From assembly GCF_044704955.1 (NCBI RefSeq), contig NC_091995.1, positions 40,238,001 through 40,302,000 on the forward strand: DNA of 64,000 nucleotides, written 5' to 3'. The notes below the pieces were generated by a model. It was not told the DNA's origin, did not search any database, and was given only the letters and a program-made list of their open reading frames with translations. The stretch comes from Pristiophorus japonicus. Its lineage: Eukaryota. Shown piece by piece: positions 19,021-42,665 of this stretch; position 1 is the first letter of the stretch; every line of letters starts with the position of its first letter. Position numbers and translations under genes: made by a program.

Positions 19021-19021
19021 A

Positions 19022-19680: not shown

Positions 19681-19844
19681 TGTCACTGATTAACCAGTGG
19701 CTGTTGGGTGTTGTACCTAGAAATCTTTACCCAACAGGAACGTGGACTTGTTTTCATTCCCTTATCCAAATAAACTAATTTCTAAAATTAAATTTACATG
19801 CTGATTCTTATAAGATTAGAATTTGGATAAAACCAGTTCCATTT

Positions 19845-20985: not shown

Positions 20986-21369
20986 AATGGGCCCAAGTTT
21001 CGAGCCGCGCCTAGAACGGCGCAATCCTGACCTGGACTCCCGTTTTTCACGCCACAAAGTGCGCCTAAAAAAACCCTCCGTATTCTCCACCTCCCTGCAG
21101 GTCCTCTGGCCCTCGGCGCAGCGAGCAGGAGCTGAAGTGGGCGGAGCCAGGTCCCTGCGCTGAAAACAGTGCCGGGACCTCTGCACATGCGCGCTACAGT
21201 GGGCACGCAAGTGCAGTAGCTCCAGGCGCCCAAAACTGTGTGGGAGGGGCCCGAAGCACGCAGCCCCTAGCCCTGGTCGAATGGCCTCACTGGGGCTGCG
21301 TGAATAAGGCTCCTCCCATGGCCAGCTCCTGCTTCCTCCTGACCCGACTCGACTCCCGCTTCCTGCTTC

Positions 21370-22010
21370 CCGCCCCCTGCCCCCGGACTGGACCCGACAC
21401 CCGCTCGCCCCCACCTCCCGCCCTCGGACCGGACCCGACACCCGCTCCCCCCACCCCCCGCCTCCGGACCGGACACAACACCCGCTTCCCCCCCCCCCCC
21501 GCCTGCCCCCGGACCGGACCCGACACCCGCTCCCCCCCCTGCCCCCGGACCGGACCCGACACCCGCTCCCCCCACCCCCCGCCTCCGGACCGGACACAAC
21601 ACCCGCTCCCCCCACCCCCCGCCTCCGGACCGGACACAACACCCGCTCCCCCCCCCCCCCCCGCCTGCCCCCGGACCGGACCCGACACCCGCTCCCCCCA
21701 CCCCCCGCCTCCGGACCGGACACAACACCCGCTCCCCCCACCCCCCGCCTCCGGACCGGACACAACACCCGCTCCCCGCCCCCCCCACCCGCCCCCGGAC
21801 CGGACCCGACACCCGCTCCCCCCCCCGCCCCCGGACCGGACCCGACACCCGCTCCCCCCCCTTCCCCCGGACCGGACCCGACACCCGCTCCCCGCCCCCC
21901 CCACCCGCCCCCGGACCGGACCCGACACCCGCTCCCCCCCCTTCCTCCGGACCGGACCCGACACCCGCTCCCCACCCCGCCTCCGGACTGGATCCGACCT
22001 GACCTCCCTC
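21370..22010. repeat. GC-rich minisatellite, ~28-35-bp unit ccggaccggac(c/a)c(g/a)acacccgctcccccc
   Basis: About 20 tandem units; explains the long Pro- and Gly-rich pseudo-ORFs. Confidence 0.92.
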
Positions 22011-22159
22011 CCCCCGACCTGTCCTCCCTCTCCCTCCCTCCCTCCCTCCGACCCGAACCGACCTTCCTCCCACCACCCCCCCGACCCGACCCAACGCCAC
22101 CTACCTGTAAATCTGGTGCTGGGGACGGGCTCTGCCCGAAGTCTCAGGCCCGGCCCGTT

Positions 22160-22610
22160 CAGCCTCCCTCCCCCTTCTCCTTCCCCCCCCCCAATCTCCT
22201 TCTCCCCCCCCCAATCTCCTTCTCCCCCCCAATCTCCTTTCCCCCCCCGCAATCTCCTTCTCCCCCCCGAATCTCCTTCTCCCCCCCATCTCCTTTCCCT
22301 CCCCATCTCCTTTCCCCTCCCCATCTTCTTCCCCCCCATCTCCTTTCCCCTCCTCATCTCCTTCCCCCCCATCTCCTTTCCCCTCCCCATCTCCTTTCTC
22401 CCCCTTCTCCCCTTTATCCCCTTCTCCCCCCTTCTCCCTCTCCCCCTCCCCCCTTCTCCCCCATCCCTCCCCTTCTCCCCCATCCCTCCCCCTTCTCCCC
22501 CATCCCTCCCCCTTCTTCCCATCTCTCCCCATCTCTCCCCATTCTCCCCCATCCCTCCCCCTACTCCCCCTTCCCTCCCCCTTCCCTCCCTCTGCTCCCC
22601 GCCTCCCCTC
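22160..22610. repeat. Polypyrimidine (C/T) tract
   Basis: Direct reading. Confidence 0.9.
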
Positions 22611-23299
22611 GCTGTCAGAAACACAGACACTGACAGACAGAGAATGAGAGACACACAGACAGACAGAGAGATAGAGACACTGACAGAGACACACTGAGGG
22701 GGGCATCCCAGCACGCTGTTGGAGGGCTCCCGGTGCTGCAGTCGGTAAGTAGAAAATGTTTTATTTATTGATTTTTTAAAAAAATTATTTCTTATTAATT
22801 TTTTTTGATTGATTTATTGGTTGATTTATTGATGTATTTATCATTTATTATTGATGATGGCTCTTTATTTGTAAAACTGAAGTGTTTAATGTTTGTAAAC
22901 TTCCCTTTAAACACCCCGCCCCCCCACCATTCCCTACGCCTGATTTGTAACCTACGCCTGATTTTCTAAAGTGTAGACAAGGTTTTTTCGAGCGTACAAA
23001 AATCTTCACTTACTCCAGTCTAAGTTAGTTTGGAGTAAGTTTTCACTCACGAAACTTTGAAATCAGGCGTAAGTGGCCAGACATGCCCCCTTTTGAAAAA
23101 AAAATTATGTTCCAAAGTGAAACTGTTCTAACTGACTAGAACTGGAGCAAACTAAATGACGAGAATTCCGATTTCTAAGATACTCCGTTCTACACCAGTT
23201 GCTCCTAAAAATCAGGAGCAAATTATATGGAAACTTGGGGCCTATGATTTAGTATTCATTAAAAAGTAGCCCGGAATATTTCAGACTCACAGAAGAAGC

Positions 23300-23905
23300 T
23301 GGGGTGGGGGAGAGTGGAGGGAAAGGGACAAAGCAGAGGGTAGGAAGAGGGAGAGAGTAGAGGGAGAGAACGGAGGGGAGGAGAAGAGATAGAGTGGATA
23401 GAGGATGTAAGGGAGATGGAGGGGAGGGCAGAGAGTTTAGAGAAGAGGATGCAGGGGTGGAAGAGAGTGGAGAGGGGGATGTGAAATTGGAGAGGGGGAG
23501 GTGGAGAGTGGAGTGGGGGCAGGGCAGATGTGTGGAAGGGGAGGGAGAGGGAGGAGAGGGGAGAGTGGGAAAGTGGGAAAGTGGAGGTGAGGGTGAGATT
23601 GGAGGGGAGGGGGAGGAGAGAGTGCAGGGGAGGGGATAGAAAGAGGAGAGGATAGAGGAAGAGAGTTGAGATCGAGGGAGACAGTGGGGGAGGGAGAGAG
23701 TAGAGGGGAGGGGAGCATGGTAAGGGAACAGAGTTGAGGACACGGGACAAGGGTGTGCAGGGGAGATGTAGAGAGTGCAGGTGAGGGAGAGTGCGGATGG
23801 AGGGAGGAGTGGATGGAGTGGGGACGGGAAGGGAGACAGTAGAGGGGAGGGAGTGGAAGGTGAGAGAGTTGAAGGGGAAGAAAAGACTGGAGGGGAGGGA
23901 GGGGA
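23300..23905. repeat. Polypurine (G/A) low-complexity tract
   Basis: Direct reading. Confidence 0.9.
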
Positions 23906-23909
23906 AACA

Positions 23910-24115
23910 GAACATAAGAAAATAAGAACTAGGAGCAGGAGTGGGCCATTTGGCCCCTGGAGCCTGCTCTGTCATTTAATATGGCTGATCTGATCATGGA
24001 GTCAACTCCACTTCCCTGCCCGCTCCACATAACCCTTTATTCCCTTATCGCTCAAAAAACTGTCTATCTCTGCCTTAAATATATTCAATGACCCAGCCTC
24101 CACAGCTCTCTGGGG
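23910..24115 (-). mobile_element. CR1 LINE 3' end
   Basis: acataagaaataag tail and conserved 3' UTR; RAVEAGSLNIFKAEIDSFL. Confidence 0.85.
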
Positions 24116-24229
24116 AAGGGAAGGGGAAAGAGGGGTGCTGGAGGATGTGGAGTGTAGGTGAGGAAGAGAATGGAGTGGAGAGAAAGGGAGGGGGACAGGG
24201 GGAGAATGGATGGGAGGAAAAATTCCTTC

Positions 24230-25930
24230 GGGTGAGAACCTCCACTTTTTTTGCATGCTTAACGCCCACCGCTGAAATGACGTATAACGCCCATATATCG
24301 CCCATTTTGGCACAAAATGGAAACTGACGGGCTTTTTTTAGGAGACATCGGCGAGCGTTATTTTCCCAATAGGCTTAACGGCGGGAAAAAATATAACCGC
24401 CCGCCCACTTTTTTTGGGCGGAATCAGCAGAATGGGCAAAATCAACACCCATATCGCCCAGCATTACTTTCCGCACGGAATTAACGCCGAGATTCAATAT
24501 GAACGCCCGCCCACTGTTTTTTGTCGTAAAGAGCATATTTACCCAAACTAGCGGCCATGGAGATCGCCCATCGTCAATTTCACCACCTCGCACACACATC
24601 GCCCACAATATCGCTCGCTCAACAAAACGCCCACAAAAAGTGGAACTAACCGGAATGAACACCAGTGGTGTGGCTGGCATTTTTTAAATCCCGCTCTTAA
24701 GTGAGGAGCTGACATCGGAAAGATTTGCCTGAAAGAGCGCTGATGTGAGCGACAACACTGACACACTGCTGTGTGAGTGCAGCTCAGACATCAATGGTGC
24801 CCATCATCTTGGTGCCAGTTAAAGTTTACATTGATTGATGTTAAGTTGTATTTAACCCTTTCATAGTAAGGAATCACCAGTGTGTAACCGTCCAGCTATC
24901 TGAGACAATGCGCAACAAGGTTAAGTTCAATATCAAAAGTTTAATACCAATATTGGTCTGAAATCATAAATATCACAGCCAATAACACCCAACCCCCACC
25001 CACATCCCACTTTTTTCACCATTGACATCAATCACATGTTCAACATGTCCACCAACACAGAATGCAAAGGCAATGCAGGAGCGTGGTCCCCAGCCCCCAT
25101 ACATTGCAACAAATTGCATACACCTAGATGGAAATATAACACAGCCATCACCTGTGCACATGCACCTCACTTTCCTTCCCCCCTCTCCTTCTGCCCACCT
25201 CTACCCCTTCCCCTCCTCACTTCATGATCAAGGAGCTCCTCAGGTGGTGCCTCATTGTGGAAGGATGAAGGCAGATGCGGTGGGTGCACGGGTACGGGAG
25301 TGGGGTTGCCGAGAGGGCGACATTCTCTGATGCAGAAGCAGTATTTTGGTCCTTGCTCTCATCTGTCATTCGCAGTGGTGGTGCGGAACCTTGGGGTGGA
25401 GTGCCGTGCTCAGGGACCACTGGGAGCCCTCTGCCACCACTGTTCCTGGCTACCAGCTCCAGGGCCTCCTCCATCCCTTCCATGTTATACCTTATTTGTT
25501 GGACAGAAACTCTGTGCCAACTATGTTCTTGGTGCTTAGTAGGCTTTTTGCTGCTGCCAAATCTCCGTTGTTCCTCCCACAACAGCTAAACAAGCACACA
25601 CCACAGCCACATATGCTTTCAGTGCCTCTGAGCTCCCTCTCTCTTTATCTCCTCTTCTGCGCATATCATGATGACCCTTGACCTCCTGAATCGCGGGAAT
25701 CAAGCGATGCCGTGCCATTGCTAGGGACAGCCACACTTTACGGCGGAAGGTCAAAAACATTTAATGCTACCGCCCATTTGATATCGCTCGCGGCAAGGCC
25801 CATTTTCAAAAATGTATACTAGGTGTTTTGAGAATGGGCGAAAAGCCGGCGATCAGAAAAACCCTTTTTACCACTCACACTAGAAATAACGGCCATTTTT
25901 GGACGATAAACACAAAAGTGGAGGTTCACA
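24230..25930. mobile_element. Deleted TIR DNA transposon (PIF/Harbinger-like)
   Basis: gaacctccactttt at 24236 and aaaagtggaggttc ending at 25927 are inverted repeats; CpG-rich arms with repeated cgccca motifs. Superfamily is inferred. Confidence 0.65.
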
Positions 25931-26280
25931 GGGGGAAATGACCCGGTTTTTGTAAAATGTTTCACGACTCCAATAAATATTAAGGTGCATCAGTCTCCAC
26001 ACTGGTATCCAGAATTGGAATCCACAAAAACATTAAAACAGCAGAGAATATAATTTCACTGAAGCTTATATCAAGGTGGTTTGATTAGACCCTATTTATC
26101 TCTGCACTCATGCTGCAGGACCTGCTGAGTATCTCTAGAATGTTCTGTTTCTGCTCATATTTCCAGTTTCTGCATTATTTTGCCATGGAACATATTCGAG
26201 ATTTACTGAGTCCTGTAACTGTTACACACTCTCTCAGACCAGGGCCTGGCTGTATCTCGGGTTTACTGAGTCCTGTAACT

Positions 26281-26845
26281 TGGGAGTGCGATATTATATC
26301 TATTACTGAGACATGGCTGAAAGAAGGGCAAGTAGAGCAGCTCAACATTCCTGGTTACAGGATTTTCAGATGGGGATAGAAAGGAGATAAAAATTGAGGG
26401 GATTTTGCAGTATTGATTAAAGAATCAATTACAGCTGTGAGGAGGGATATTATGTTAGAAGAATCATTAATTGAGGGTATATGGTATGAATTAAAGAACA
26501 AAAAAGTGGTGATCACACTTCTGGGAGTGTATTATAAACCCCCAAGCAGTCAGAGGGAGATAGAAGAGCAAATATGTAGACACATTTCTGAGAAGTGCAA
26601 AAACTATGAAATGTTAATTGTAGCAAATTTCAACTACCCTAATAATAACTGGGATAGAATTCGTGTGAAAAGTATAGATGGTACAGGATTCCTAAAAGGG
26701 GTAACAATGGGAAAGCATTTTGGTGCTACTGATCATAATTCATTTAGATTTAGGGTAGTTACAGAAAAAGACAAAGATAGACCAGGAGTAAACATTCTCA
26801 ATTGGCGGAAAGACAATTTTACTAAGCTGAGATGTAATTTAGCCA
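26281..26845 (+). mobile_element. CR1 endonuclease fragment inserted into a short degenerate tandem repeat (tttactgagtcctgtaactgttaca)
   Basis: DIISITETW, LGVYYKPP, ANFNYP, TDHN motifs; repeat units at ~26200-26280 and ~26855-26950. Confidence 0.8.
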
Positions 26846-27021
26846 ATGGGCTGCGTTTAGTGAGTCCTGTAACTGTTACAGACTCCCTCAGTCTCGGGTC
26901 TGGAACTTAATCCTGTTTTACTGAGTGCAGCGTCTATAACTGTTACAGGGAGTCATTCTCAACTCTCTCTTTCTCTCTTTCTCTCTGTTCCTTCATCTTG
27001 CTGTCTTTCATCCGTATTTCA

Positions 27022-27330
27022 GTTGAGACATTCAACCGAGGCTCCATCTGCCCTCTCAGATGGACGGAAATGATCCTATGGCACTATTTCGAAGACGAAC
27101 AGGAGAGTTACCCCCAGTGTTCTGGCCAATAGTGATACCTCAATCAACATAACAAAAACAGATTATCTGGTCATTATCACACTGCTGTTTGTGGGAGTTT
27201 GCTGTGCGCAAGTTGGCTGCCCCGTTTCCCACATTACAACAGTGACAACACTCCAAAAATAGTCGATTGGCTATAAAGCGCTTTGAGACGTGTGGTGTTC
27301 GTGAAAGGCGCTATATAAATGCTAATCTTT
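27022..27330 (+). mobile_element. Deu-domain SINE (SacSINE1/AmnSINE1-like), 5'-truncated
   Basis: ctgccctctcagatggacg...cagattatctggtcattatcacactgctgtttgtgggag...gtgaaaggcgctatataaatgc resembles the DeuSINE central domain and tail as I recall it. Confidence 0.75.
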
Positions 27331-27483
27331 CATTCATTTTGTCTTTCTCATTCTCCTTGTCTCTCTGGATCTCTGTCCTACGTTTTGTCTGTCTCTCTTT
27401 CCCCCTCTTTCTCTGTCTCTCTTTCCCTCTCTCTCTACCTCGTTTCTGTGTACTTGTATCTCTTTATCCCTATCTCTCGCATG

Positions 27484-27518
<35 letters not shown>

Positions 27519-27925
27519 TCATCTGTCTCTCTTTCCATCTCTCTCTATCTTTCTCTATCTCTTTCTATTTCTCTCTCACTCTTTCCAGCTCTATTTCATT
27601 TTCCCCCTCTGTCCCTGTCTTTATCTATGTCCCTGTTTCACTTTCTCTTACTCTCACTTTCCCTCGCCCTCTCTCTCGTTGCCCTCTCTCACACATTACT
27701 ACCCCTGTCTCTTTCTCTCTCTCCGTCCATGTCTCTCTTTTTTCTGTGACACGCTATCATTTTCTCTTTCCTTGTCTCTGTCCCTTGGACTTTCATTGTG
27801 TCTCTCTCTGTCTCTGTCTATTTATTTCCCTCTCTGAGTTGCTCCTTTTTATCTCTTTCTTTGTCTGTATCTATGTGTCTCTCCCTCTTTCTCATGCTCT
27901 CTCTCTCTCTTCCTCTGTGCTTCTC
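27330..27925. repeat. (CT)n-rich low-complexity tract
   Basis: Direct reading. Confidence 0.9.
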
Positions 27926-29578
27926 CCGGATTTATTTTTGAATGAAAAGTACTCTGAAGTGTTTTGAAAATTACAAATATTAAACCATAATTTCCGTAGC
28001 ATTGTTACATGTTAACATAGAAACATAGAAATTTACAGCACAGAAGGAGGCTATTACGGCCCATCGTGTCCGCACCAGCCAAAAAAGAGCCACACGGTCC
28101 TTGGTCAGCAGCCCTAAAGATTACATATAAACCTATGAACAATTACGGAAAGGCAAAGAGCACCCAACCCAACCAAGCTGCCTCACCACAACTGCGACAC
28201 CCCTTATACTAAAACATTCTACACTCCATCCCAAACGGAGCGATGTGATCTCCTGGGAGAGGCAAAAACCAGATAAAAACCCATGCCAATTTAGGGAGTA
28301 AAAAATCTGGGAAAATTCCTTTCCGACCCATCCAGGCGATCAAAACTAGTCCAGGAGATCACCCTGGCTGTATTCTATTCCCTGCCGTACTTACCATTCT
28401 ATCTGCTCCATCCAACCAAAGGTCATCCAGTCTAATCCCAATTACCAGCTCTAGGTCCGTAACCCTGCAGGTTACTGCACTTTAAGTGCCCATCCAACCC
28501 TCTCTTAAAAATGGTGACGGTTTCTGCATCCACCACTATTCCAGGCAGCGAGTTCCAGATCCCCACAACCCTCTGCATAAAGAAGCCCCCCCCACCTCAA
28601 ATTCCCTCTAAACCTTCCACCAACCACTTTAAAACTATGTCCCTCATAATAGACTCCTCCACCAATGGAAATAGACCCTTACTATCCACCATGTCCAGGC
28701 CACTCAATATTTTATACACCTCAATGAGGCCTTCTCTTAACCTCCTCTGTTCCAATGAGAACAAACCTAGCCTATCCAATCTGTCCTCATAACTAAGATT
28801 CTCCATTCCAGGCAGCATCCTAGTAAATTTCCTCTGCACCCTCTCTAGTGCAATCCCGCCCTTCCTATAATACGGCGACCAGAACTGCACGCAATACTCC
28901 AGCTGTAGGCAACCCAAGTATTATACAATTTAAGCATAACCTCCCTGTCTTAGATTCTATGCCTTGGCCAATAAAGGCAATCATTCCGTATGCCTTCTTA
29001 ACCATCTTATCCACCTGGCCTGCTACTTTCAGGGATCTGTGGACAAGCACTCCAAGGTCCCTTTGTTCATCTACACTATTAAATGGCCTACCGCTTAATG
29101 TCTATACCCTTTCCTTATTAGCCCTCCCAAAGTACATCACCTCACACTTCTCTGAATTAAATTCCACGTGTAACTGCTCTGTCCACCTGACCAGTAGATT
29201 GATAGCCTCCTGCAGCCCATGACTTTCCTCTTCATTATCAACCACACAGCCAATTTTAGTGTCATCTGCAAACTTCTTAATCATACTCCCTATATTCAAA
29301 TCTAAATCGTTGATATATACCACAAAAAGCAAGGGTCTCAGTACTGAGCCCTGCAGAATCCAACTGGAAGCATCCTTCCAGTCACAAAAACATCCATCAA
29401 TCATTACCCTTTGCTTCCTACCTCCAAGCCAATTTTGGATCCAACATGACACTTTGCCCTGTATCCTATGGGCTTTAACCTTCATGACCAGTCTATCATG
29501 TGGGACCTTATCAAAAGGTTTGCTAAAGTCCATATATACTACATCGTACACACTACCCTAATTAAACCTCTTAGTTAC

Positions 29579-29791
29579 TGTTATGTCTTAAATAAAGCAA
29601 TGTGACTGAGTACTGTAGACGTGAGTAAGTGTGACCTTAGTCTCTTTATTCTGACTCCAGAGTGCTGGCACAGCATGGGAGGCCTGCTTATATGCAGCGC
29701 CCCCAAGAGATATTGGGATCCTTTGGGACTCCAACAGATGCGCCCTCTGGTGGCGGTAGAATTCTGGTTACGAGGTATTGCATACATAACA
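29579..29791. mobile_element. Solo LTR (213 bp), Gypsy-type
   Basis: TGTTATGT...ACATAACA inverted termini and 5-bp TSD GTTAC (29574-29578, 29792-29796); interrupts LINE RT sequence. Confidence 0.88.
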
Positions 29792-31423
29792 GTTACCTCC
29801 TCAAAAAATTCAAACAGTTTAGTCAGACACGATCTTCCCTTAACAAATCCGTGCTGACTGTCCCTAATTAATCCTTACCTTTCCAAATGCAGATTTATCC
29901 TGTCTTTTCCAATAATTTTCCCGCCATTGGGGTTAGACTGACAGGACTGTAATTACTTGGCCTATCCCTTTCTCCCTTCTTAAACAAGGGTACTACATTA
30001 GTAGTCCTCCAATCCTCCGGCATCATGCCCAGATCCAAAGAGGACTGGAAAATGATGGTCAAGGCCTCTGCTATTTCCTCTTTTACTTCGCTCAACAGCC
30101 TGCGATGCATTTCATCCGGGCCTGGGGACTTATCTACTTTCAAAGCTGCTAAACCCCTTCCTCTCTCGCTATATTTATTTCATCCAGAATATCACGCTCC
30201 TCCTCGACAGCAGTATCTGCATTGCCCCTTTCCTTTGTGTAAAGAGTTGCAAAGTATTTGTTAAGAACCCTCCCAACATCTTCTGCCTCTGCACAAAGAT
30301 TACCCTCATAGTCTCTAATAAGCCCTACCCTTTCTTTAGTTACCCGCTTACTCTTAATATATTTAGAGAACATTTTAGGGTTTTCCTTAATTTTACTGGC
30401 CAAGAATTTCTCATGCTCTTTCTTAGCATTCCTAATATCCTTTTTAATTTTGCCTCTTAACTTTCTATATTCCTCTAAAGATTCTATAGTATTTAGCCGT
30501 TGATATATGATATAAGCATCCCTTTTTTTCTTAATCCTCCACTGTAAGTCTTGAGACATCTAGGGGGCTCTAGAATTATTTTTCCCAGTCTTTTTCTTTA
30601 CGGGCACATGTTTGGCCTGAGCCTTCCGGATCTCCTCCTTAAATGCCTCCCACTTTTCCAACACTGATTTACCCACAAGTAGCTGTATCCAGTCCAAATC
30701 ACTCCTTAACTTAGCAAAATTAGCTTTTCCCCAATTCTGAACTTTTATTCCAGGTCTATTCTTGTCCTTATCCATAACCAACTTGAATCTAACTGAATTA
30801 CGGTCACTGGCACCCATGTGCTCGCCCACTAATACCCCTTCAACTTGCCCAGCTTCATTCCCCAAAACTAAATCCAAAACTGCCCCCTTTCATGTTGGGC
30901 TTGCTACATACTGACTAAAAAAGTTCTTTTGAATGCATTTCAAGAATTCCGCACCCTCTATACCCTTCACACTAAATTTCTCCCAATCAATGTTAGGACA
31001 GTTAAAATCCCCGACTATTATGACCCTGTGGTTTTTGGATTTCACAGCAATTTGCCTTCATATTTGCGCCTCTATCTCCCTCCCACTGTTTGGGGGTCGA
31101 CATTACACGGCCAGCAATTTGATCGCCTTTTTTTTGTTTTTCAATTCGACCCATATTGCCTCATTTGATGATCCCTCTAACATATCATCCCTCCTCACCG
31201 CTGTAATATTTTCTTTAATCAGTACCGCAACCACACCCACCCCCCCCTCCCCCCGCCTTTTTACCCCCCTCTCTATCTTGTGTAAAAATCCTGTAGCCAG
31301 GAATATTGATCTGCCAAACCTGCCCCTCTTTCAGCCATGTTTCTGTAATGGCTATAATCTCATACTCCCAAGTGTCTACTTGTGCTCTTAGCTCCTCCGC
31401 CTTATTCGCTATACTCCTTGCAT

Positions 31424-33600
31424 TAGAAACTTAGAAACATAGAAAATAGGTGCAGGAGTAGGCCATTCCACAGGTTCACCACTCTCTGGGTGAAGAAGTT
31501 TCTCTTCATCTCGGTCCTAAATGGCTTACCCCTTATCCTTGGACTGTGACCCCTGGTTCTGGACTTCCTCAACATTGGGAACATTCTTCCTGCATCTAAC
31601 CTGTCTAAGTCCATCAGAATTTTAAACATTTCTATGAGATCCCCTCTCACTCTTCTGAATTCCAGTGAATACAAGCCCAGTTGATCCAGGCTTTCTTGAT
31701 AGGTCAGTCCCGCCATCCCGGGAATCAGTCTGGTGAACCTTTGCTGCACTCCCTCAATCGCAAGAATGTCCTTCAAGTTAGGAGACCAAAACTGTACACA
31801 ATACTCCAGGTGTGGCCTCACCATGGCCCTGTACAACTGTAGTAACACCTCCCTGCCCCTGTACTCAAATCCCCTTGCTATGAAGGCCAACATGCCATTT
31901 ACTTTCTTCACCGCCTGCTGTACCTGCATGCCAACCTTCAATGACTGATGTACCATGACACCCAGGTCTCGTTGCACCTCCCCTTTTCCTAATCTGTCAC
32001 CATTCAGATAATAGTCTGTCTCTCTGTTTTTACCACCAAAGTGGATAACCTCACATTTATCCACATTATACTTCATCTGCCATGCATTTGCCCACTCACC
32101 TAACCTATCCAAGTCACTCTGTAGTCTCATAGCATCCTCCTCGCAGCTCACACTGCCACCTAACTTAGTGTCATCCGCAAATTTGGAGATACTATATTTA
32201 ATCCCCTCGTCTAAATCATTAATGTACAATGTAAACAGCCGGGGCCCCAGCACAGAACCTTGTGGTACCCCACTAGTCACTGCCTGCCATTCTGAAAAGT
32301 ATCCATTTACTCCTACTCTTTGCTTCCTGTCTGCCAACCAGTTCTCAATCCACGTCAGCACACTACCCCCAATCCCATGTGCTTTAACTTTGCACATTAA
32401 TCTCTTGTGTGGGACCTTGTCGAAAGCCTTCTGAAAGTCCAAATACACCACATCAACTGGTTCTCCCTTGTCCACTCTACTGGAAATATCCTCAAAAAAT
32501 TCCAGAAGATTTGTCAAGCATGATTTTCCTTTCACAAATCCATGCTGACTTGGACCTATCATGTCACCATTTTCCAAATGCACTGCTATGACATCCTTAA
32601 TAATTGATTCCATCATTTTACCCACTACCGATGTCAGGCTGACCGGTCTATAATTCCCTGTTTTCTCTCTCCCTCCTTTTTTAAAAAGTGGGGTTACATT
32701 GGCTACCCTCCACTCCATAGGAACTGATCCAGAGTCTATGGAATGTTGGAAAATGACTGTCAATGCATCCGCTATTTCCAAGGCCACCTCCTTAAGTACT
32801 CTGGGATACAGTCCATCAGGCCCTGGGGATTTATTGGCCTTCAATCCCATCAATTTCCCCAACACAATTTCCCGACTAATAAGGATTTCCCTCAGTTCCT
32901 CCTTCTTACTAGACCCTCTGACCCCTTTTATATCCGGAAGGTTGTTTGTGTCCTCCTTAGTGAATACCGAACCAAAGTACTTGTTCAATTGGTCTGCCAT
33001 TTCTTTGTTTCCCATTATGACTTCCCCTGATTCTGAGTGCAGAAGACCTACGTTTGTTTTTACTAACCTTTTTCTCTTTACATATCTATAGAAACTTTTG
33101 CAGTCCGTCTTAATGTTCCCTGCAAGCTTCCTATTTTCCCTGCCCTAATCAAACCCTTTGTCCTCCTCTGCTGAGTTTTAAATTTCTCCCAGTCTCCGGG
33201 TTCGCTGCTATTTCTGGCCAATTTGTATGCCGCTTCCTTGGCTTTAATACTATCCCTGATTTCCCTTGATAGCCACGGTTGAGTCACCTTCCCTTTTTTA
33301 TTTTTATGCCAGACATGGATGTACAATTGTTGTAGTTCATCCATGCAGTCTCTAAATGTCTGCCATTGCCCATCCACAGTCAACCCCTTAAGTATTATTT
33401 GCCAATCTATCCTAGCCAATTCACACCTCATATCTTCAAAGTTACCCTTCTTTAAGTTCTGGACCATGGTCTCTGAATTAACTGTTTCATTCTCCATCCT
33501 AATGTAGAATTCCACCATATTATGGTCACTCTTTCCCAAGGGGCCTCACACAACGAGATTGCTAATTAATCCTCTCTCATTACGCAACACCCAGTCTAAG
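31424..33600 (-). mobile_element. Young 5'-truncated CR1 LINE with an uninterrupted 530-aa RT ORF
   Basis: ORF 31423-33015 with [33 protein letters not shown]; internal deletion joins the ORF to the tail. Confidence 0.95.
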
Positions 33601-34344
33601 ATTAAAGTATGTACCATTCAGCACAGGAAGACCTCCTTGCTTACTACATACTAAACCCTGTTTCCTCTGTCTTACAGATTCACTTTCTAGATTCTTGCTA
33701 TCCAATTTCAGCTTTACTTCCTTCCCTTTTGAATTCATTCTCAGATTCCCATCCCCCTGCCAAGCTAGTTTAAACTCTCCCCAACAGCATAGCAAAACAT
33801 TAAATTAGAGGCTGGAAATCTGTCAGGTAAATCTAGTTTCTCAACCTGAAAGACTTTCACTTTTAAAGTTGTGCTGGGACCTGAGATCAAATGTTGTATC
33901 CATTCAGACAATGCTGCATTTTGCAACTCGCTGTTAACTGTGCAGACACAGGAGATGGGATTGTTCATTGTAGCCTCTGGCCTCACCATTCAGGCATGGG
34001 TCGTGGCAGCTACACCACTTCACCCTGCCGCCTCCCCCATCACCCCCACAGGCCTAAAAGTGACCATGTCCCGATTTCCAGGCGTTTTAGACCAAACGGC
34101 TAAGATGAGGACCACTGCTGACTTCAGCGCCCCTGGTGCAGACCTGCAGGTCGCATCATGAAGTTCTACAACATCAGCCCATGATTCTTTGATCATGTAT
34201 TTCAATGGTGGAAAATTCCTCCAGACTGAGGGTGCAGAATTTCCTAATCTGCAGATTGGGCATGATTCAGCAGTGGGAAATTCCTGTCATATTTGACTGA
34301 GGTAGTGAGCAATAGGGCTGAGGAAAGCAAATAAACCCAGCTTT

Positions 34345-34880
34345 CAACTCACTCCTGGCCGGCCTTCCACATTCCTCACTACGTAAACTTGAAGTCATGC
34401 AAAACTCAGCAGCCCATGTACTAACCCGCACCGTCAAGATCACACCCCTGTGCTTTCTGACCTACATTGGCTCCCAGTTAAACAATGCCTCGATTTCAAA
34501 ATTCTCATCCTTGTTTACAAATCACTCCATGGACTTGCCCCTCCCTATCTCTGTAATCTTTTTCAGCCTCACAATCCCACAAGATGTCTGCGCTCCTCAT
34601 ATTCTGACCTCTTGAACATCCCTCATACTGCTCAACCATCGGCGGACATGCCTTCAGCTGCCTGGGCCCTAAGCTCTGGAACCCCTTCCCTAAAACTCTC
34701 TGCCTCTCTACCTCTCTCTCCTCCTGAAGACTCTCGTTAAAACTTACCACTTTAAACAAGCTTTTGAACTTCTGCCTTAATTTATTCTGTAGCTCGGTGT
34801 CAAATGTATCTGTTTGTCTGTAGCACTGTTGTGAAGTGCCTTGGGACGTTTTACTATGTTAAAGGTGCTATGTAAATAAA
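34345..34880 (+). mobile_element. L2-clade LINE 3' fragment
   Basis: QNSAAHVLT and LSDLHWLPVKQCLDFKILILVYKSLHGLAPPYL. Confidence 0.85.
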
Positions 34881-35274
34881 AGTTAATATTATTATTAATA
34901 ATCACCAGCCCATGATTCAGAGGGTGGCAGTGTGAGTATCGGCTGAGTATAGCATCAGTCTGTCCTGTGGTGGCCCCAGGGTTGATTTGCCCAATGGATA
35001 CAGTGCTGGATAGTTGACCAGAGTAGCACAAGGGATTGTGAATAATTTGATATTGTCTGTAATTCGAATCCAATTGTTGAAAAGGAGAAGGAAAGGGTGA
35101 AACGTTGTGGGAAGTGGAATTTAATCCATCATCATCACAGGATGTGCCTTTGGTGATAACAGAGCCATTGGACTCCCCCCAAAGTGTGGGGGAAATTACC
35201 GGTTTTCTCCTGGACTTTCTGCAGAAACGGTCGCCTTTTTAGTCACTGAAGGGATTGAGTGTTGAGGAAATGTC

Positions 35275-35650
35275 ATAAGAACATAAGAAATAGGAGCAGG
35301 AGTAGGCCATTTGGCCCCTTGAGCCTGCTTCGCCATTTAATAAGATCATGGCTGATCCAAACATGGACTCAGCTCCATTACCCCACCCACTCACCATAAC
35401 TCTTTATTCCCTTATCGCTCAAAAATCTGTCTATCTCCGCCTTAAATATATTCAATGACCCAGCCTCCACAGCTCTCTGGGGCAGAGAATTCAACAGATT
35501 TACAACTCTCAGAGAAGAAATTCCTCCTCATCTCAGTTTTAAATGGGCCGCCCCTTATTCTAAGACTATGTCCCCGAGTTTCAGTTTCCCCTATGAATGG
35601 AAATATCCTCTCTGCATCCACCTTGTTGAGCCCCCTCATTATCTTATAAT
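35275..35650 (-). mobile_element. CR1 LINE 3' end
   Basis: TRGHSLRIRGGPFKTEMRRNFF; cataagaa tail. Confidence 0.88.
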
Positions 35651-35950
35651 GTCCTGAAAGGAATTCCCCCTGTTGGTATAAACTCTTCAGCAACCACCCT
35701 GACCCTGTCCCAGGTTTCAAGGTAATGACACCGCGTGGCAGACTATTTCCTTCTGTGGGTGTCGCTAGGAAGGCTGGTAGTTATTGTCCAATAGCAGGGT
35801 GTTTGGACATCGCAGAGGGCAGCTAAGAGCCCTCAGGTCGGTGTGGGATTGTAGTCACATGTCAGCCAGACCCGACAGGGACAGGAGCTTTGAGAGGTCC
35901 TGAGGTGGTGAAGAGCACTGTAGAAATGCAAGTTTCTCTTTCTCTCTCAC

Positions 35951-38900
35951 TAATATGTATTTACTATACAGTATAAATGCACACGAGGCCCATACTTGAG
36001 CGAAGATCACTCTGTGACCAGTTACCTTTATTAACAAGACCTCAAGAGACAGACGGTGGGTGGAGCTTCCCCTTTTATACCTGAAAGTCCAGGTTAGGAG
36101 TGTCTCCCACAAGTTCGCCCCCTGTGGTCAGTGTTCTCAAGGTGTACAACTTAGGTCAGCTTATACATGGGTTACAATGACAGTTGAATACATGACATCA
36201 TCTCCCCCCCAAAGTCTTATTGGGATCACAGGTTAAGTCACCCTGGTGGTTTATGCTCCCTTATAGAGCGCCTGAGTTGGGGCTCCAGTTGTTGGGCGCT
36301 GGCCTGAGTGTCTTTTGTTTGCGGTGCCTCAGGCCTGTCCAGACTGCCTACAGTGACTGGGCTCTCCTCCACTTGGTTCCGGTGTTCGGTCACCTGTGGT
36401 GGAGTAAACTCTACGTCGTGTTCTTCCTCTGCTTCTTCTATGGGGTTGCTGAACCTCCTTTTAGTTTGATCCACGTGTTTGCGGCAGATTTGTCCATTTG
36501 TAAGTTTAACTACCAAAACCCTATTCCCCTGTTTGGCAATCACAGTGCCTGCAAGCCATTTGGGCCCTGCAGCGTAATTAAGGACAAGAACAGGGTCATT
36601 GACATCAATGCATCTTGCCCTCGCATTCCTGTCACGGTAGTCACATTGTGACTGACGCCTGCTCTCAACAATTTCTTTCATATTAGGGTGTATAAAGGAT
36701 AACCTGGTTTTGAGCGTCCTTTTCATTAGCAGCTAATCAGGTGAAACCCCTGTGAGTGAGTGTGGTCGGGATCTATTGGCCAACAGGAGGCGTGATAAGT
36801 AGCTTTGTAGGGAACCCCCTTGGTTTCTGAGCATCCCCTGTTTAATTATCTGCACTGCTCATTCCGCCTGGCCGTTTGAGGCCGGCTTGAATGGTGCCGT
36901 TCTGACATGGTTGATTCCATTGCCTGCCATGAAGTCCTAGAAGTCAGTGCTTGTGAAGCATGGGCCACTGTCGCTGACCAAGATGTCCAGTAGACCATAG
37001 GTGGCGAACATTGCCCGAAGACTTTCTACCGTGGCAGAGGATGTGCTTGAATTTAAAATGGCACATTCAATCCATTTGGAGTAGGCGTCTACTACAACAA
37101 AAAACATTTTTTCCATGAAAGGTCCTGCGTAGTCCACATGAATGCATGACCATTGCTTGGCGGGCCAGTACCAGAGGCTAAGGGGATCTTCCCTGGGTGC
37201 GTTGCCCAGCTGAGCACGCGTGTTGCACCTGTGAACACAAAGTTCCAGGTCTGCATCTATTCCTGGCCACCAAATGTGTGACCTGGCAATTGCCTTCATC
37301 ATGACAATGCCCGGGTGCTCATTGTGAAGTTCTCTGATAAACACCTCTCTGCCCATCTGGGGCATGACTACTCAGTTTCCCCACATTAGGCAATCGGCCT
37401 GAATCGAGAGTTCATCCTTGCGCCTATTAAACGGTTTAAACTCCTCAGGGCATGCCCCGTACGTGGCTGCCCAGTCCCCATTCAGGACACATTTCTTAAC
37501 TAAAGACAGTAGCGGGTCTTTATTTGTCCAGGCGTTAATCTAACGGCCTGTCACAGGTGAGCCTTCGCTTTTGAAAGCTTCAACCACCATGACCATCTCA
37601 GCATCATGCTCAGCTACCCCCTCAATGGTGGCTATTGGTAGCCTGCTGAGTGCATCGGCACAGTTTTCAGTGCCCGGTCTGTGTAGCAGCTCTAACAGCG
37701 TGCTCAATTTGGGAAGAAAGTTGCCAAAATAGTTCAGGAGCCCTAGGAACGAACGCAGCTCCGTCATGTTACGGGATCTGGGTGTTCTCTGGATCGCTTC
37801 AGTTTTGGATGCAGTAGGTCTGATGCCGTTTGCTGCTACCCTCCTCCCCAGGAATTCTACCTTTGGAGTTAAGAAGACGCACTTCACCTTTTTCAGTCGC
37901 AGCGCTACCCGGTCCAGTCTAGCACCTCCTCCAGGTTATGGAGGTGTTCTTCAGTATCGCGACCCGTGATGAGGATGTCGCCTTGAAAAACCACCATCCT
38001 TGGAATCGACTTGAGGAGGCTTTCCATATTTTGCTGAAAGATCGCGGCGGCCGAATGAATACCGAACAGACATCTGTTATACTCAAATAACTCCTTGTGT
38101 TTCATGATGGTGGTCAACTTCTTCGACTCACTCGCCAGCTCCTGGGTCATGTAAGCTGAGGTCAGGTCCAATTTTGAAAAAAGTTTGCCACCGGATAACG
38201 TCGCAAAGAGGTCCTCTGCTCTCAGTAGTGGGTACTGGTCTTGGAGTGACACCCGATTGATGGTGGCCTTGTAATCGCTACATATCCTGACCGACCCATC
38301 CGCCTTGAGCACCGGCATGATCAGGCTCGCCCAGTCACAGAATTCGACTGGCGAGATAATGCCTTCCCTCAGCAGGCGGTCCAATTCGCATTCTAACTTT
38401 TCCCGCATCACGTACGGCACCGCTCTGGCCTTGTGGTGTACAGGCCTGGCGTCCGGATTGATGTGAATCACTACCTTGGTCCCCATGAAAGTGCTGATGC
38501 CGGGTTGAAATAATGAGTCAAATTTGTCCAGGACCTGCGAGCATGATACTCGCTCCACAGAAGAAATTGCATTGACATCGCCCCATTTCCAGTTCATGAC
38601 AGCAAGCCAACTCCTTCCCAGTAGTGCGGGACCGTCCCACGGGACAATCCAGAGTGGCAACCTGTTCTCCGAATCTTTGTGGGTCATGACTACCATGGCG
38701 CTGCCTAGCACCGGAATGATCTCCTTTGTATATGTCCGTAGCAGTGCGTCAATCGGCAATAATTTTGGCCTCCTGGCCTTGGACACCCACAACGTTTCAA
38801 AATGTTTGATACTCATCAGGGACTGGCTGGCCCCCATTGTCCAGCTCCATTAATACTGGGATGCCATTGAGGAGCACTTTCCTCATTGTCGGTGGCGTCC

Positions 38901-40162
38901 TGGTATATGAACTGTATAGGTACTCCACGTGAACTCGCTGAACTTCAGCTTCCAGCGATTTCCCCAGTATTCATTTGGCCTCGTAGGGCTTACATTGGGC
39001 CCGTCCTCCTTGTACATCAACCTGGCTGCAGGCTTCCTGCACATACGCGCCAAGTGACCGCTGACGTTGCAGTTTCTGCAAGTATATTGCTGATACCTGC
39101 AAGCTCTGGCTGGGTGTTTGCCTCCACACCTCCAGCATGAGATGGAGGCCCCATTGTTGGAAACAAAAGGTCCATTACCAGTTGATCATCTCTGACTGTC
39201 TCTGTAACTCTCCTTAAGCGCACCATTAACATGTGTTGATGGTCCCATTACTGGCCGCATTGTCCATTGCGATGGCATGAATCACCGTTCAACTAGCCAT
39301 TGTCTCTGTTGAATTCCCCCTTTGGGTGACTGCATGCTGGGGTATATCTGATTGCCCTTGTATGCCTAGAGAACTGTGTGCCGCGTTAACAATGTTGACT
39401 CCCTGGTCGTTTGCCGCATTTGAGCCAAGATTTTTGCCATAAATCATTTGGTCTCTTCCTCCCCTGAGATAATTGTCTGGGCTATCAGAGCTGCCGCTTC
39501 CAAGGTCAAGTCTTTGGTCTCAATTAGTTTCCTGAAAACCCCAGCGTGTCCGATGCCCTCAATAAAAATAATCTCGCAGCATCTCTGCTCTGCATGCATC
39601 TGGGAGCTTACATAGGCTCACCAGTCGCCGGAGATCTGCCATGAAGTCTGGAACGCTTTGCCCTTCTCGCCGCTGGTGTGTAAAACCGATGTCTCGCCAT
39701 GTGCATGCTGCTCGCCTGTTTAAGGTGTTCCCTGATCAACTTACTGAGCTCTTCGAATGTCTTGTCCGCCGGCTTCTCTGGCTAGAAGATCCTTCATCAG
39801 GGAGTACGTCCTGGATCCACAAACCGTCAGGAGATGAGCCCTGCGTTTGTCGGCCGAATCCTGTCCCAACCATTCGTTAGTGACAAAACTTTGCTGTAGT
39901 CTCTCAATAAAGTCGTCCCAATCATCACCAACACAGTACCTCTCTTCTGTGCTGCTAGTGGCCATGCTCGCGTGGTTTAAATCCCAGTTTCCCGTCGCCA
40001 ATAATATGTCCTTACTATACAGTACAAATGCACACGAGGCCCATACTTGAGAGAAGATCACTCTGTGACCAGTTACCTTTATATACAAGTGGTCAGTGTT
40101 CTCAAGGTGTACAACTTAGGTCAGCTTATACATGGGTTACAATGACAGTTGAATACATGACA
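35951..40162 (-). mobile_element. Ty3/Gypsy LTR retrotransposon, defective (gag, protease, RT, integrase; RNase H region deleted)
   Basis: 3' LTR 35951-36197, 5' LTR 40002-40162 (internally deleted), TSD CTCAC, PBS TGGCGAC at ~39994-40000, polypurine tract next to 36198; RT FSKLDLTSAY; integrase HPGIVMMK..WWPGID..HVDYAGP..VVDAYSKW. Confidence 0.95.
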
Positions 40163-40169
40163 CTCACAC

Positions 40170-41430
40170 ACACAGCGAGTACAGGAGGTGCGGAAAGTTG
40201 CCTCTGGTGCTCACCCCGTACTGCTCCAGGCTGTGAGCAGCAGGCGCCGGTCAATTCTCAGTCAGTGGGGCGGATCTTGCCTTTGTGCGACAGTGTAAAA
40301 CGGGGGAGAACCAGTCGGCAGCACCTTGTACATCGCTCCAGGGTGTTACTGCCATCGAACTCAACAGAAGGGGGAAACGGGGAGAAAGATGGGAAACGGG
40401 CGGGACTCGCTGTCGCCCACTTTACCCCATCGCACGGAGTCAACATTCCCCGAGTGGAACTGCACATGCTGGGAATCTGATCAAAGCAGCAAATGTTGCA
40501 AATATGCAGCGGGTCAGTCTGAGAGAAACAGATGGGTAAACTCTGGGAGATCAAACTTCACCAGAACCTGTACGGGTCGCCTCAAAGCTTCATCCTGACG
40601 CGAATCGGAAGGTGTAAAAGAGGTTCCCGGGTCGCTGGCACCCGTCCCCCCTGCGATTAAAGTCAATCCCTCCCCTTGTATGTTGAATGATTTGTCCGAT
40701 TGATCGGGAGGTTTAAAAGGTTTTTCAAGTTCTCAGGCGGTGCAATGAAGCATTTAAAGTGCAGCTTCCCGCCGGCTGGAGTTACACTGAAACAAACAGG
40801 TGTGAACTCGAAGCGACCGAGCCGCGTTCCTGCAGGAGTCTCGCCGCTGGACTCCTGGTCACTCGGGTGGTCAGGCCGGGACTGGGATCGTAGGTATACT
40901 GAAACTTCCCTCCCCGCAAGCCCGCTGTGCGGGAAGACACTGTCAGTCCCCCTCCGGCTGACCAGGGTCAACAAAGAAGCTGCCCCAATAACTGGACGGC
41001 AATGTCAGGCTATCTGGAGAGTGATGGACTTCATCTAATCCAACCAAAGGGAGAAGCGAGGCTGAGAAGCAGGATGGAGATTGCAATCCGGCTCCATCGC
41101 TACACTGCCTCACACACTGGCCCGTCTCCCTCTGTGAAACACCTGATGTAACCCACAGACCTGCCCGTCCCAGTCTAAGATCAGAGGGTGAGCCTGTCGA
41201 CATTGAATGGTGCAGCGGGAACCGGCTACTCACCAGATAGGGCCGCTTGGAGGCAGTGGAAGCTCAGTACAAGTGACAGAAACATGCCGTCCCGTCCGTT
41301 CGCCGCCTCTCCCAGTGACAAGCCGAGACTGAGCGCTTTGAATGGACCCGAGCCCAGCTTCACTCACAAGTGGTCGGTGCGGGAGCTCAGCGTCCAATCG
41401 CAATAAAACATGTGGATCCGTCACTGGTTA
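40170..41430. promoter_or_regulatory. CpG-rich island over the promoter, leader exon and start of intron 1 of the class I gene
   Basis: Visibly high CpG density in non-repeat sequence compared with the CpG-depleted flanks; not formally computed. Confidence 0.7.
41234..41285 (-). CDS. Signal-peptide (leader) exon 1 of the MHC class I gene: MFLSLVLSFHCLQAALS
   Basis: ggcATG start (G at -3), 17 codons + 1 nt, hydrophobic core ending A-L-S, consensus phase-1 donor G|GTGAGT; joins in frame to the exon at 7259 (G+AG = Glu). Confidence 0.85.
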
Positions 41431-41451
41431 TCAAGGACTGTCCCTGAACTG
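41394..41451 (-). promoter_or_regulatory. MHC SXY-type promoter module: X1 (CCTTGATAACCAG, 41424-41436), X2 (TGACG, 41419-41423), Y box (ATTGG, 41394-41398), possible S box (CAGTTCA, 41445-41451)
   Basis: Order, orientation and 20-nt X2-to-Y spacing fit MHC enhanceosome promoters; Y box lies 108 nt upstream of the leader ATG. Confidence 0.78.
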
Positions 41452-41456
41452 TAAGC

Positions 41457-41810
41457 ACAGAATCACAGAATGGTCACAGCACGGAAGGTGGCCATTTGGC
41501 CCGTCGAGCCCGTGCCGGCTCTCTCCAAGAACAATTCAGCTCGCCCCACTATCTGCCATTTTCCCGTACCACTGCATTTTTTTCCTTCGGGTACTTACCC
41601 AATTACCTTTTGAAAGTCACTATTGAATCTGCCTCCACCACCCTTTAAGCAGTGTATTTCAGATCCGAACCACTCGCTGGGTAAAAAAGTTTTTCCTCAT
41701 GTTGTCTTTGGTTCTTCCAATCACCTTAAATCTGTCTCCTCTGTTTCTCGACCCTTTTGCCAATGGGAACAGTTTCTCTCTATCTGCTCTGTCCAGACCC
41801 CTCATGAATA
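41457..41810 (-). mobile_element. CR1 LINE 3' end abutting the promoter module
   Basis: cacagaatcacagaa tail, ggccatttggccc 3' UTR, degenerate RT C-terminus. Confidence 0.82.
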
Positions 41811-42405
41811 TTCATCAAATATGCAAAGAAACTGATATTAAATCAGTAAAACAGTAATATATAGAATTGCAAGCTTATTATAAGATGTTACGTTCTTCCT
41901 ATGTGAGCGACACTGGTAAGCCAGCATTTTTCCCATCCCTTCTTGCCTTGACTGCATTAAGAGCCAGCTATATTGGGTGGGATAGAATCGTTTGCAGGCC
42001 AGACCATATAGGGTGTGTGAGGTTTAATTCTCTGTGAGCCATTAGTGAAACAAATTGTTTTTTATGATAATCCGCCAGCTTCCGTGGTCATTTTTCTTGC
42101 TGATAGCCCACAAATAAGATTTATTGATTTCAATTTTCAGCTTCCTATGTTGGAATTTAGACTCAACACCTCTGGGCTTCTCGCCCAGTACTATCCTCAC
42201 TAGGCTACTGTATTATCCCCTTCACTCGTCCAGAAACATTTATTGATGTATTTACAGAACACTGCTTTCATAGTTCTCTGGTCCATCTGAATCAATAGGC
42301 AACAGTAAGTAATAGAATTCAACTAGGATTGTGGGCTGTACGTTTTGCCAGGTGGATTCAAGGAACTTTACATGATTGCATTTCAATTTTTACAAACCAA
42401 CTTAC

Positions 42406-42665
42406 TTGAACTTGGGTTGATCTGCTGTAACGCTCTGGAAACTTGCCCTTTCTGATTCTGTGGAAACTAGCTACAGCAATTATGAGTCCATCCCAGTAAC
42501 TGGCGTCATAGGATTTCATCATCCACTGCTTCTTTGGAACCGTTATGTACATAATGCTGTAATAATAGTCTATCTCACAGTTATCAACAACTTCCATTAT
42601 ACTACAGTCCAGAAGATGAGAAATCCCATTTTTGAGTGTGTAGTGATACATCAAAGAGTCAGAAC
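42406..42665 (-). pseudogene. Orphan, frameshifted MHC class I alpha1 exon (paralogue of 6999-7259)
   Basis: (G)SDSLMYHYTLKNG...VDNCEIDYY...ITVPKKQW...SYWD...ASFH..KG; splice sites ttctag|GT and A|gtaagt at homologous positions, but length is 260 nt; the homologous end LQQINPSS is in a shifted frame. Confidence 0.88.

What the first reader, a model, noticed from the sequence alone, without database searches (positions are those of the whole stretch)
41394..41451. X1-X2-Y enhanceosome module with mammalian-like spacing in a shark class I promoter
Seen (gene orientation): CAGTTCA gggacagt CCTTGATAACCAG TGACG + 20 nt + ATTGG, 108 nt upstream of the ATG. Known: MHC class I/II promoters carry S-X1-X2-Y boxes bound by RFX, CREB/ATF and NF-Y, which recruit NLRC5 or CIITA, and X-Y spacing is helically constrained. 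From memory, HLA-DRA has the same 20 nt between TGCGT and ATTGG. Inference: enhanceosome control is conserved in this cartilaginous-fish gene and retained on a non-classical locus. The S-box call is weak.
Basis: partly seen in the sequence, partly recalled or inferred. Interest (0 to 1): 0.75.

Follow-up and report, generated by a model that had tools for sequence, protein, structure and literature searches.

The report
S-less MHC switch on shark UGA
A shark immune gene of the CD1-like UGA family carries the X1-X2-Y part of the standard MHC control switch at mammalian spacing, but a retrotransposon tail sits where the S box should be and there is no interferon site next to it, so it is likely switched on by RFX, CREB and NF-Y without the usual class I activator NLRC5.

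Summary
The X1-X2-20nt-Y module is real and lies 108 nt upstream of the leader ATG. The gene is the sawshark copy of UGA, a CD1-like non-classical class I lineage; its leader is 34 kb from the alpha1 exon. A matrix trained on five other shark MHC promoters ranks this site 1 of 127,900 in the window.

The S-box call is wrong. Four of six other MHC modules in this genome have CAACC at -34, the mouse H2-K position, and three also have an ISRE near -57. All five UGA promoters have neither: a CR1 LINE 3' tail ends at the S position.

Paralogue conservation is uninformative, because the boxes are no better kept than the adjoining intron. No RNA data were available. SXY modules are known in mammals and teleosts. 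This is a new member of that kind, with one twist: the layout without S box or ISRE resembles the shark class II alpha promoter more than class I.

The parts
41424..41437 (-). X1 box (RFX site); half-site GATAAC, GACAAC in the four paralogues
   Evidence: aligns with X1 of five other shark MHC modules
41419..41423 (-). X2 box, CRE half-site TGACG (CREB/ATF)
   Evidence: invariant in 5 of 5 copies
41399..41418 (-). 20-nt X2-Y spacer
   Evidence: 20 nt in 5 of 5 UGA copies and in 5 other class I modules, 19 nt in class II alpha
41394..41398 (-). Y box, inverted CCAAT (NF-Y)
   Evidence: invariant in 5 of 5 copies
41445..41451 (-). CAGTTCA: not an S box; the same 7-mer lies between S and X in two shark U-type promoters (at -24; here at -28)
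   Evidence: table; changed to CGGTT(C/T)A in 4 of 4 paralogues
41452..41458 (-). canonical S-box position (-35..-29): reads GTGCTTA, no CAACC core, overlapped by the CR1 tail
41456..41807 (-). 3' end of a CR1 LINE (ORF2 C-terminus, 3' UTR, two ATTCTGTG tail units), same orientation as the gene
   Evidence: homology of other copies ends at 41456 in 25 of 46 non-UGA alignments, 41452-41461 in 42 of 46; 5' end and decayed ORF2 translation; the CR1 name rests on recalled ORF2 and tail features
41326..41332 (-). only initiator-like match (TCAGTCT) between Y and the ATG; predicted start near 41330, 64 nt after Y; no TATA seen
   Evidence: kept in 5 of 5 copies; prediction only
41234..41285 (-). leader exon coding part, MFLSLVLSFHCLQAALS + phase-1 donor
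   Evidence: the only leader-like exon on this strand of the window
7260..41233 (-). intron 1, about 34 kb, rich in CR1 and LTR elements; first kilobase CpG-rich (o/e 0.70, window median 0.38)
6999..7259 (-). alpha1 exon of UGA; alpha2, alpha3, TM and tail exons lie just beyond the window start (L031)
42388..42663 (-). decayed UGA-type alpha1 exon upstream of the CR1; part of the duplicated unit

Best explanation
This is an X1-X2-Y module 108 nt upstream of the leader exon of the shark UGA gene, with a CR1 tail at the S position and no adjacent ISRE; it likely docks RFX, CREB/ATF and NF-Y at the promoter, and would respond poorly to NLRC5, giving basal or CIITA-assisted expression rather than the interferon-inducible control of classical class I. 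Shown: the boxes, their spacing, the gene and its lineage, the CR1 junction, and the full ISRE-S-X-Y layout at other class I genes of the same MHC. Inferred from mammalian work: who binds, that the 20-nt spacer keeps RFX and NF-Y in phase, and that loss of S weakens NLRC5 but not CIITA activation. Inferred history: UGA inherited the module from the common MHC promoter ancestor, and one CR1 insertion older than the sawshark UGA duplications took the place of everything upstream of the S-X spacer.
For: Position and rank. Same module upstream of 6 of 7 other located leaders (three U-type, UDA, a UCA/UEA-type gene, class II alpha). CAACC(T/G) at -34 in 4 of 6 of these, 0 of 5 UGA copies; TTTCNNTTTC at -57/-56 in 3 of 5 non-UGA modules scanned, none within 300 nt in 5 of 5 UGA copies. 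CR1 end at 41456 with the same junction in all five copies. No displaced S or ISRE at the far end of the roughly 3 kb element in the one paralogue mapped. RFX5_N (2 loci), RFXAP and NLRC5-type CARD domains are encoded in the genome. S is decisive for NLRC5 (PMC4374748, passages); scrambling S hurts NLRC5 but not CIITA (PMC7753138, passages). CpG-rich first kilobase.
Against: No binding, reporter or expression data. Boxes are not better kept than their surroundings: 1 of 24 core columns varies against 24 of 192 in UTR plus intron (p=0.20); the whole 1.1 kb block differs by about 8%. Only against the CR1 tail is p=0.03, and that contrast can come from homogenisation of the block. Three of four promoter-sharing paralogues have a frameshift in alpha3, so they add no functional support. 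X1 misses one base of the recalled RGYAAC half-site. In a salmon cell line RFX5 and most NF-Y transcripts were absent and IRF1 was proposed as the driver (PMC7573153, passages), so the mammalian mechanism may not carry over to fish. CIITA, RFXANK, NF-Y and CREB genes were not searched. The shark class II alpha promoter and one U-type promoter also lack CAACC, so UGA may have lacked S before the CR1 arrived.
Confidence: 0.62

Rival explanations
1. It is a complete NLRC5-type SXY module in which CAGTTCA (or a shark-specific element at that place) does the work of the S box.
For: AGTT occurs at -23..-20 in 4 of 4 other class I modules tabulated, and the full CAGTTCA in two of them, so the word may matter in sharks. 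An NLRC5-type CARD is encoded in the genome.
Against: In those promoters the word lies beside a separate CAACC S box; here it is 4 nt out of register, has no S before it, and is mutated in 4 of 4 paralogues. S-X distance is fixed at about 16 nt in NLRC5 targets (PMC4374748 section 10).
Confidence: 0.13
2. The module is an inherited relic: after losing S and ISRE it no longer assembles an enhanceosome, and the gene runs from a CpG-rich initiator promoter or is weakly expressed.
For: No excess conservation of the boxes; most paralogues are broken; the window copy's tail exon is read out of frame in this assembly.
Against: X2, Y and the 20-nt spacer are exact in 5 of 5 copies; alpha1-alpha3 and TM are open, and orthologues are 67-74% identical in six other sharks; the UGA and U-type lineages are old, yet the site scores highest in the window.
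Confidence: 0.2
3. The CR1 3' end supplies a new upstream element that cooperates with X-Y and has rewired UGA expression in this lineage.
For: The tail abuts the module in the same place in all five copies.
Against: The retained CR1 segment differs by 18.5% between the window and the paralogues, like neutral upstream DNA (16-17%); no ISRE, kB or S-like word within 300 nt.
Confidence: 0.04
4. Chance arrangement of short words.
For: TGACG-N20-ATTGG occurs 4,071 times genome-wide.
Against: Rank 1 of 127,900, about 1e-4 by position, and the same layout at six other MHC promoters.
Confidence: 0.01

Closest known systems
NLRC5-type SXY module of mammalian MHC class I, B2m and Tap1/Psmb9 promoters (mouse H2-K; PMC4374748)
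   Same: X1, TGACG, exactly 20 nt, ATTGG, same orientation, upstream of a class I leader exon.
   Different: No CAACC/TAACC S box at -35..-29, no ISRE or kB site within 300 nt; a CR1 tail lies there; X1 half-site is GATAAC.
CIITA-type SXY module of MHC class II promoters (mouse H2-Eb; sawshark class II alpha at C19:55.70 Mb)
   Same: AAC-type X1 followed by 3 nt and X2; like the shark class II alpha module it has neither CAACC nor an adjacent ISRE.
   Different: Spacer 20 nt against 19 nt in H2-Eb and shark class II alpha; no GGACC-type S box; drives a class I-type gene.
S-X-Y-like motifs of teleost classical class I promoters (salmon and trout UBA; PMC7573153, PMC11695323, passages)
   Same: The module is already reported in fish class I promoters.
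   Different: Salmonid non-classical L-lineage genes lack S-X-Y and use ISRE/GAS; UGA shows the opposite, X-Y without ISRE.
Shark non-classical class I lineage UGA (nurse shark; PDB 9CH4; PMC10751288 supplement file 10)
   Same: E 1e-138 over residues 18-285; the 9CH4 alpha1 sequence is the one labelled Gcirratum_UGA; entry title names UGA.
   Different: Described as single or low copy (PMC12562908, passages); six copies on C19 here, most broken; no promoter description found.

Membership tests
MHC SXY enhanceosome module | X1 (RFX) box directly followed by X2 (CRE half-site) | tested here: met
   X score second of 127,962 window sites and far above 30 unselected hits; one mismatch to the recalled half-site
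MHC SXY enhanceosome module | Inverted CCAAT Y box at the fixed distance | tested here: met
   20 nt, as in H2-K
MHC SXY enhanceosome module | S/W box about 16 nt upstream of X | tested here: not met
   GTGCTTA at -35..-29, CR1 tail; no CAACC or GGACC word upstream of X1 within -60
MHC SXY enhanceosome module | Lies just upstream of the start site of an MHC gene | tested here: inconclusive
   108 nt before the annotated leader ATG; start site only predicted
MHC SXY enhanceosome module | Binding of RFX, CREB/ATF, NF-Y and activation by NLRC5 or CIITA | not testable with these tools
   only presence of RFX5_N, RFXAP and NLRC5-type CARD domains shown
NLRC5-type class I module | CAAC-type S box at fixed spacing, usually with an upstream ISRE | tested here: not met
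   0 of 5 UGA copies; S in 4 of 6 and ISRE in 3 of 5 other modules
CIITA-type class II module | GGACC-type S box and class II gene downstream | tested here: not met
   no such word; the gene is class I-type
UGA lineage (gene) | Closest to nurse shark UGA among named lineages | tested here: met
   465.7 bits to 9CH4 against 180.3 to the other shark class I structure 6LUP; by eye unlike the UAA, UBA, UCA, UDA, UFA queries; no tree built
UGA lineage (gene) | Lipid binding like CD1 | not testable with these tools
   reported as personal communication in PMC12562908 (passages)

The most novel reading that the evidence does not exclude
The CD1-like UGA gene is wired like a class II gene: an X-Y module without S box or ISRE that answers to CIITA in antigen-presenting cells, so that sharks split NLRC5-type and CIITA-type control by antigen route (peptide from the cytosol versus cargo from endosomes) rather than by MHC class, and the S box code is as old as jawed vertebrates.
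Probability: 0.22. Interest if true: 0.62.

Novelty: new member of a known kind. Interest (0 to 1): 0.33.

Why it matters
It extends the MHC X-Y module, with base-exact spacing, to a CD1-like lineage of the oldest group with an MHC. It also offers a natural comparison in one genome: ISRE-S-X-Y (U-type, UDA), X-Y only (UGA, class II alpha). That set makes the mammalian rule 'S box selects NLRC5' directly testable in sharks. On its own, an X-Y box before an MHC gene is what a specialist would expect: it is reported in mammals, marsupials and teleosts. I found no paper describing it in sharks in four full-text searches (open-access library only; the J. Immunol. papers on UDA and UEA were not held).

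Tried and rejected
1) Expression and start site: no RNA holder listed, so no reads were laid; this is no evidence either way. 2) Paralogue footprinting: uninformative. 3) Idea that CAGTTTC at the 5' end of the window's CR1 is a displaced ISRE: rejected; that flank is intron-side DNA of the decayed exon, lies more than 10 kb from the promoter in the paralogues and reads CAGTTTA there. 4) Displaced S/ISRE at the 5' end of the long CR1 in paralogue L128: none found (one of four paralogues mapped). 5) A second promoter-leader cassette in intron 1, as earlier notes report for another shark: none found. 6) Promoter of the sister lineage (C19:44.97 and 49.66 Mb) as an outgroup: no module in 70 kb and 30 kb scanned, and no leader located. 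7) U-type gene at 56.61 Mb and sixth UGA copy at 47.18 Mb: no module in 40 kb each. 8) Class II beta: family search found nothing, and no control rang. 9) Retrocopy 5' ends as start-site markers: obscured by a tandem repeat. 10) The AlphaFold model was poor (pLDDT 54) and served only to retrieve the title of 9CH4. 11) Paper searches for 9CH4 and for a UGA structure paper gave nothing beyond the review. B2M, TAP1 and PSMB9 promoters were not examined.

Full report
Observation. On the minus strand the window reads CAGTTCA (41451-41445), 8 nt, CCTTGATAACCAG (41436-41424), TGACG (41423-41419), 20 nt, ATTGG (41398-41394), 108 nt, ATG (41285).

The gene. The ATG opens a 17-codon signal peptide ending at a phase-1 GTGAGT donor. 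The alpha1 exon lies at 7259-6999, so intron 1 is about 34 kb; alpha2, alpha3 and TM exons follow just beyond the window. The alpha1 exon is 100% identical to a Pristiophorus japonicus protein, P0001, whose model contains this leader. No other leader-like exon was found on this strand. Six orthologues from other sharks are 67-74% identical and have a similar leader. The best solved structure is 9CH4 (E 1e-138), titled 'shark nonclassical MHC class I, UGA', and its alpha1 sequence is the one labelled nurse shark UGA in the supplement of PMC10751288 (part 97 of 98). A review reports UFA and UGA as CD1-like, lipid-binding lineages, citing a personal communication (PMC12562908, passages).

Chance. 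TGACG-N20-ATTGG occurs 4,071 times in the genome, less often than its reversed control (10,774), so the two words alone prove little. By position the chance is about 9e-5 per 250 nt upstream of one ATG. A matrix trained on five non-UGA shark modules ranks the site 1 of 127,900 in the window; 0 of 149,796 sites in 25 other loci reach it, and 30 unselected X2-20-Y hits score at most -4.1 on X against 11.6. Three training sites were found with a matrix that included this site, so the rank is somewhat inflated; the other two came from a looser word search.

Other MHC promoters of this genome. The family search gave 41 class I matches of 55 candidates, most on C19. I scanned upstream of 11 other genes (nine; three of these extended and two added). 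A leader was located for seven. Six of the seven have an X1-X2-Y module: three U-type genes (54.67, 49.78, 57.16 Mb), UDA (53.27), a UCA/UEA-type gene (53.92) and class II alpha (55.70). The C11 gene has only a degenerate second module. For the four others neither leader nor module was found. The spacer is 20 nt in the five class I modules and 19 nt in class II alpha. Lineage labels for these genes are by eye. Four of the six have (C/T)CAACC(T/G) at -35..-29 from X2, the place of CTAACCT in mouse H2-K (counted from primers in PMC4374748). Three of five scanned have TTTCNNTTTC at -57/-56. So the full ISRE-S-X-Y layout exists in this shark with mammalian geometry.

The S box of UGA. The window has GTGCTTA at -35..-29 and no S-like, ISRE or kB word upstream; the same holds for 4 of 4 paralogues. 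The DNA from 41807 to 41456 is the 3' end of a repeat with a decayed reverse-transcriptase C-terminus and two ATTCTGTG tail units, which I identify as a CR1 LINE from recalled features. Homology of other copies ends at 41456 in 25 of 46 non-UGA alignments and within 41452-41461 in 42; 35 of the 40 scored genome hits of the promoter query match only this tail. Here it lies 4 nt after the CR1 end and 4 nt further from X (by eye). On either register the S position falls in the CR1 tail. The junction is the same in all five copies, which points to one insertion older than the duplications. In paralogue L128 the element is about 3 kb, and no S or ISRE lies at its far end. Whether UGA had an S box before the insertion cannot be told: the spacer word suggests so, but class II alpha and one U-type gene also lack CAACC.

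Paralogues. Four further promoter-leader copies (88-91% identical) lie 22-31 kb upstream of a UGA alpha2 exon each. The duplicated unit also holds a decayed alpha1 exon upstream; in the window about 10 kb or more between it and the CR1 are missing. X2 and Y are invariant, and 1 of 24 core columns varies. This is lower than in the CR1 tail (21 of 93, p=0.03) but not lower than in UTR plus intron (24 of 192, p=0.20). Divergence is about 8% over the whole 1.1 kb into intron 1, against 16-17% upstream. The block was homogenised or is constrained as a whole, so this is no evidence for selection on the boxes. Three of the four paralogues have a frameshift in alpha3. The window copy has open alpha1-alpha3 and TM exons. 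Its TM exon ends one base short relative to two paralogues, so the tail exon that would read DYNVV is read in another frame in this assembly.

Mechanism. In mammals RFX binds X1, CREB/ATF X2 and NF-Y the Y box, and spacing is critical (PMC4374748, passages and section 10; PMC7281430, passages). The S box decides NLRC5 activation, and scrambling it impairs NLRC5 but not CIITA in reporters (PMC7753138, passages). The genome encodes RFX5_N domains at two loci, RFXAP and one NLRC5-type CARD. I infer that UGA keeps the RFX-CREB-NF-Y platform, starts near the single initiator match at 41330 in a CpG-rich kilobase, and lacks the NLRC5 and IRF inputs that its classical-type neighbours have. Confidence 0.62. 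The relic reading (0.2) and a shark-specific S substitute (0.13) stay open. A caution from fish: in a salmon cell line enhanceosome transcripts were largely missing and IRF1 was proposed as driver (PMC7573153, passages).

Comparison. It works like an MHC X-Y enhanceosome site. It fails the membership test for a complete SXY module and for the NLRC5 type. Such modules are in print for eutherians, opossum (PMC1351924, passages) and salmonids. Four searches found no shark description. Earlier notes of this scan report similar modules in other sharks and rays; they are unchecked and not used as support.

Verdict. Real feature, S call wrong, new member of a known kind. Interest 0.33; the class II-like wiring of a CD1-like gene is the reading worth testing (probability 0.22).

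Noticed in passing
L001-L009 (G000:C3:316.6-319.3 Mb): Nine near-identical intronless class I copies (leader, alpha1 and alpha2 in one open frame of 419-777 aa) outside the MHC contig; L001 shows homology to U-type promoter DNA more than 1 kb upstream of the ATG. Processed copies that look intact and amplified.
   Followed up: partly
L112 (C19:53.927 Mb) and L105 (C19:53.253 Mb): A UCA/UEA-type gene and UDA, with very different alpha domains, share a promoter plus leader exon that is 94% identical over 989 nt: promoter swapping between lineages.
   Followed up: partly
L101:9850-9950 (C19:49.766 Mb): Orphan X1-TGACG-20-ATTGG module with a second RFX-like half-site, 7.5 kb upstream of a U-type promoter and with no leader seen; possible distal enhancer.
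   Followed up: no
L096, L100, L114: U-type promoters carry a second, degenerate X-20-Y module 104 nt downstream of the first, then a tandem repeat of variable length before the ATG.
   Followed up: no
window 42388-42663 (-); L142-L146: Decayed UGA-type alpha1 exon, repeated upstream of each paralogous promoter and once more at C19:40.387 Mb, where no other UGA exon was found in 40 kb.
   Followed up: yes
L031:6555-6575 and 5216-5232 (-): End of the TM exon is one base shorter than in two paralogues, which shifts the tail micro-exon from DYNVV-stop (a tyrosine sorting-type motif also seen in orthologues) to a longer unrelated tail; real allele or assembly error.
   Followed up: partly
L129-L132, L158 (C19:47.17-47.22 Mb): Sixth UGA copy with alpha1-alpha3 and TM but no leader or promoter within 35 kb upstream of alpha1; its public model P0003 has a repetitive false N-terminus.
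   Followed up: partly
L109, L133, L023, L025, L027: A sister lineage of UGA (alpha1 about 45% identical), at least three copies on C19, matching none of the named queries by eye; no SXY module found in 70 kb and 30 kb upstream.
   Followed up: partly
window about 36200-40100 and 46900-49900: LTR retrotransposon-like elements (gag/pol-like frames), one inside intron 1 of UGA; many CR1 fragments throughout.
   Followed up: no
window 41286-41321 (-): Orthologues start seven codons further upstream (MAGG...); in the sawshark that ATG is lost but the reading frame still aligns.
   Followed up: no
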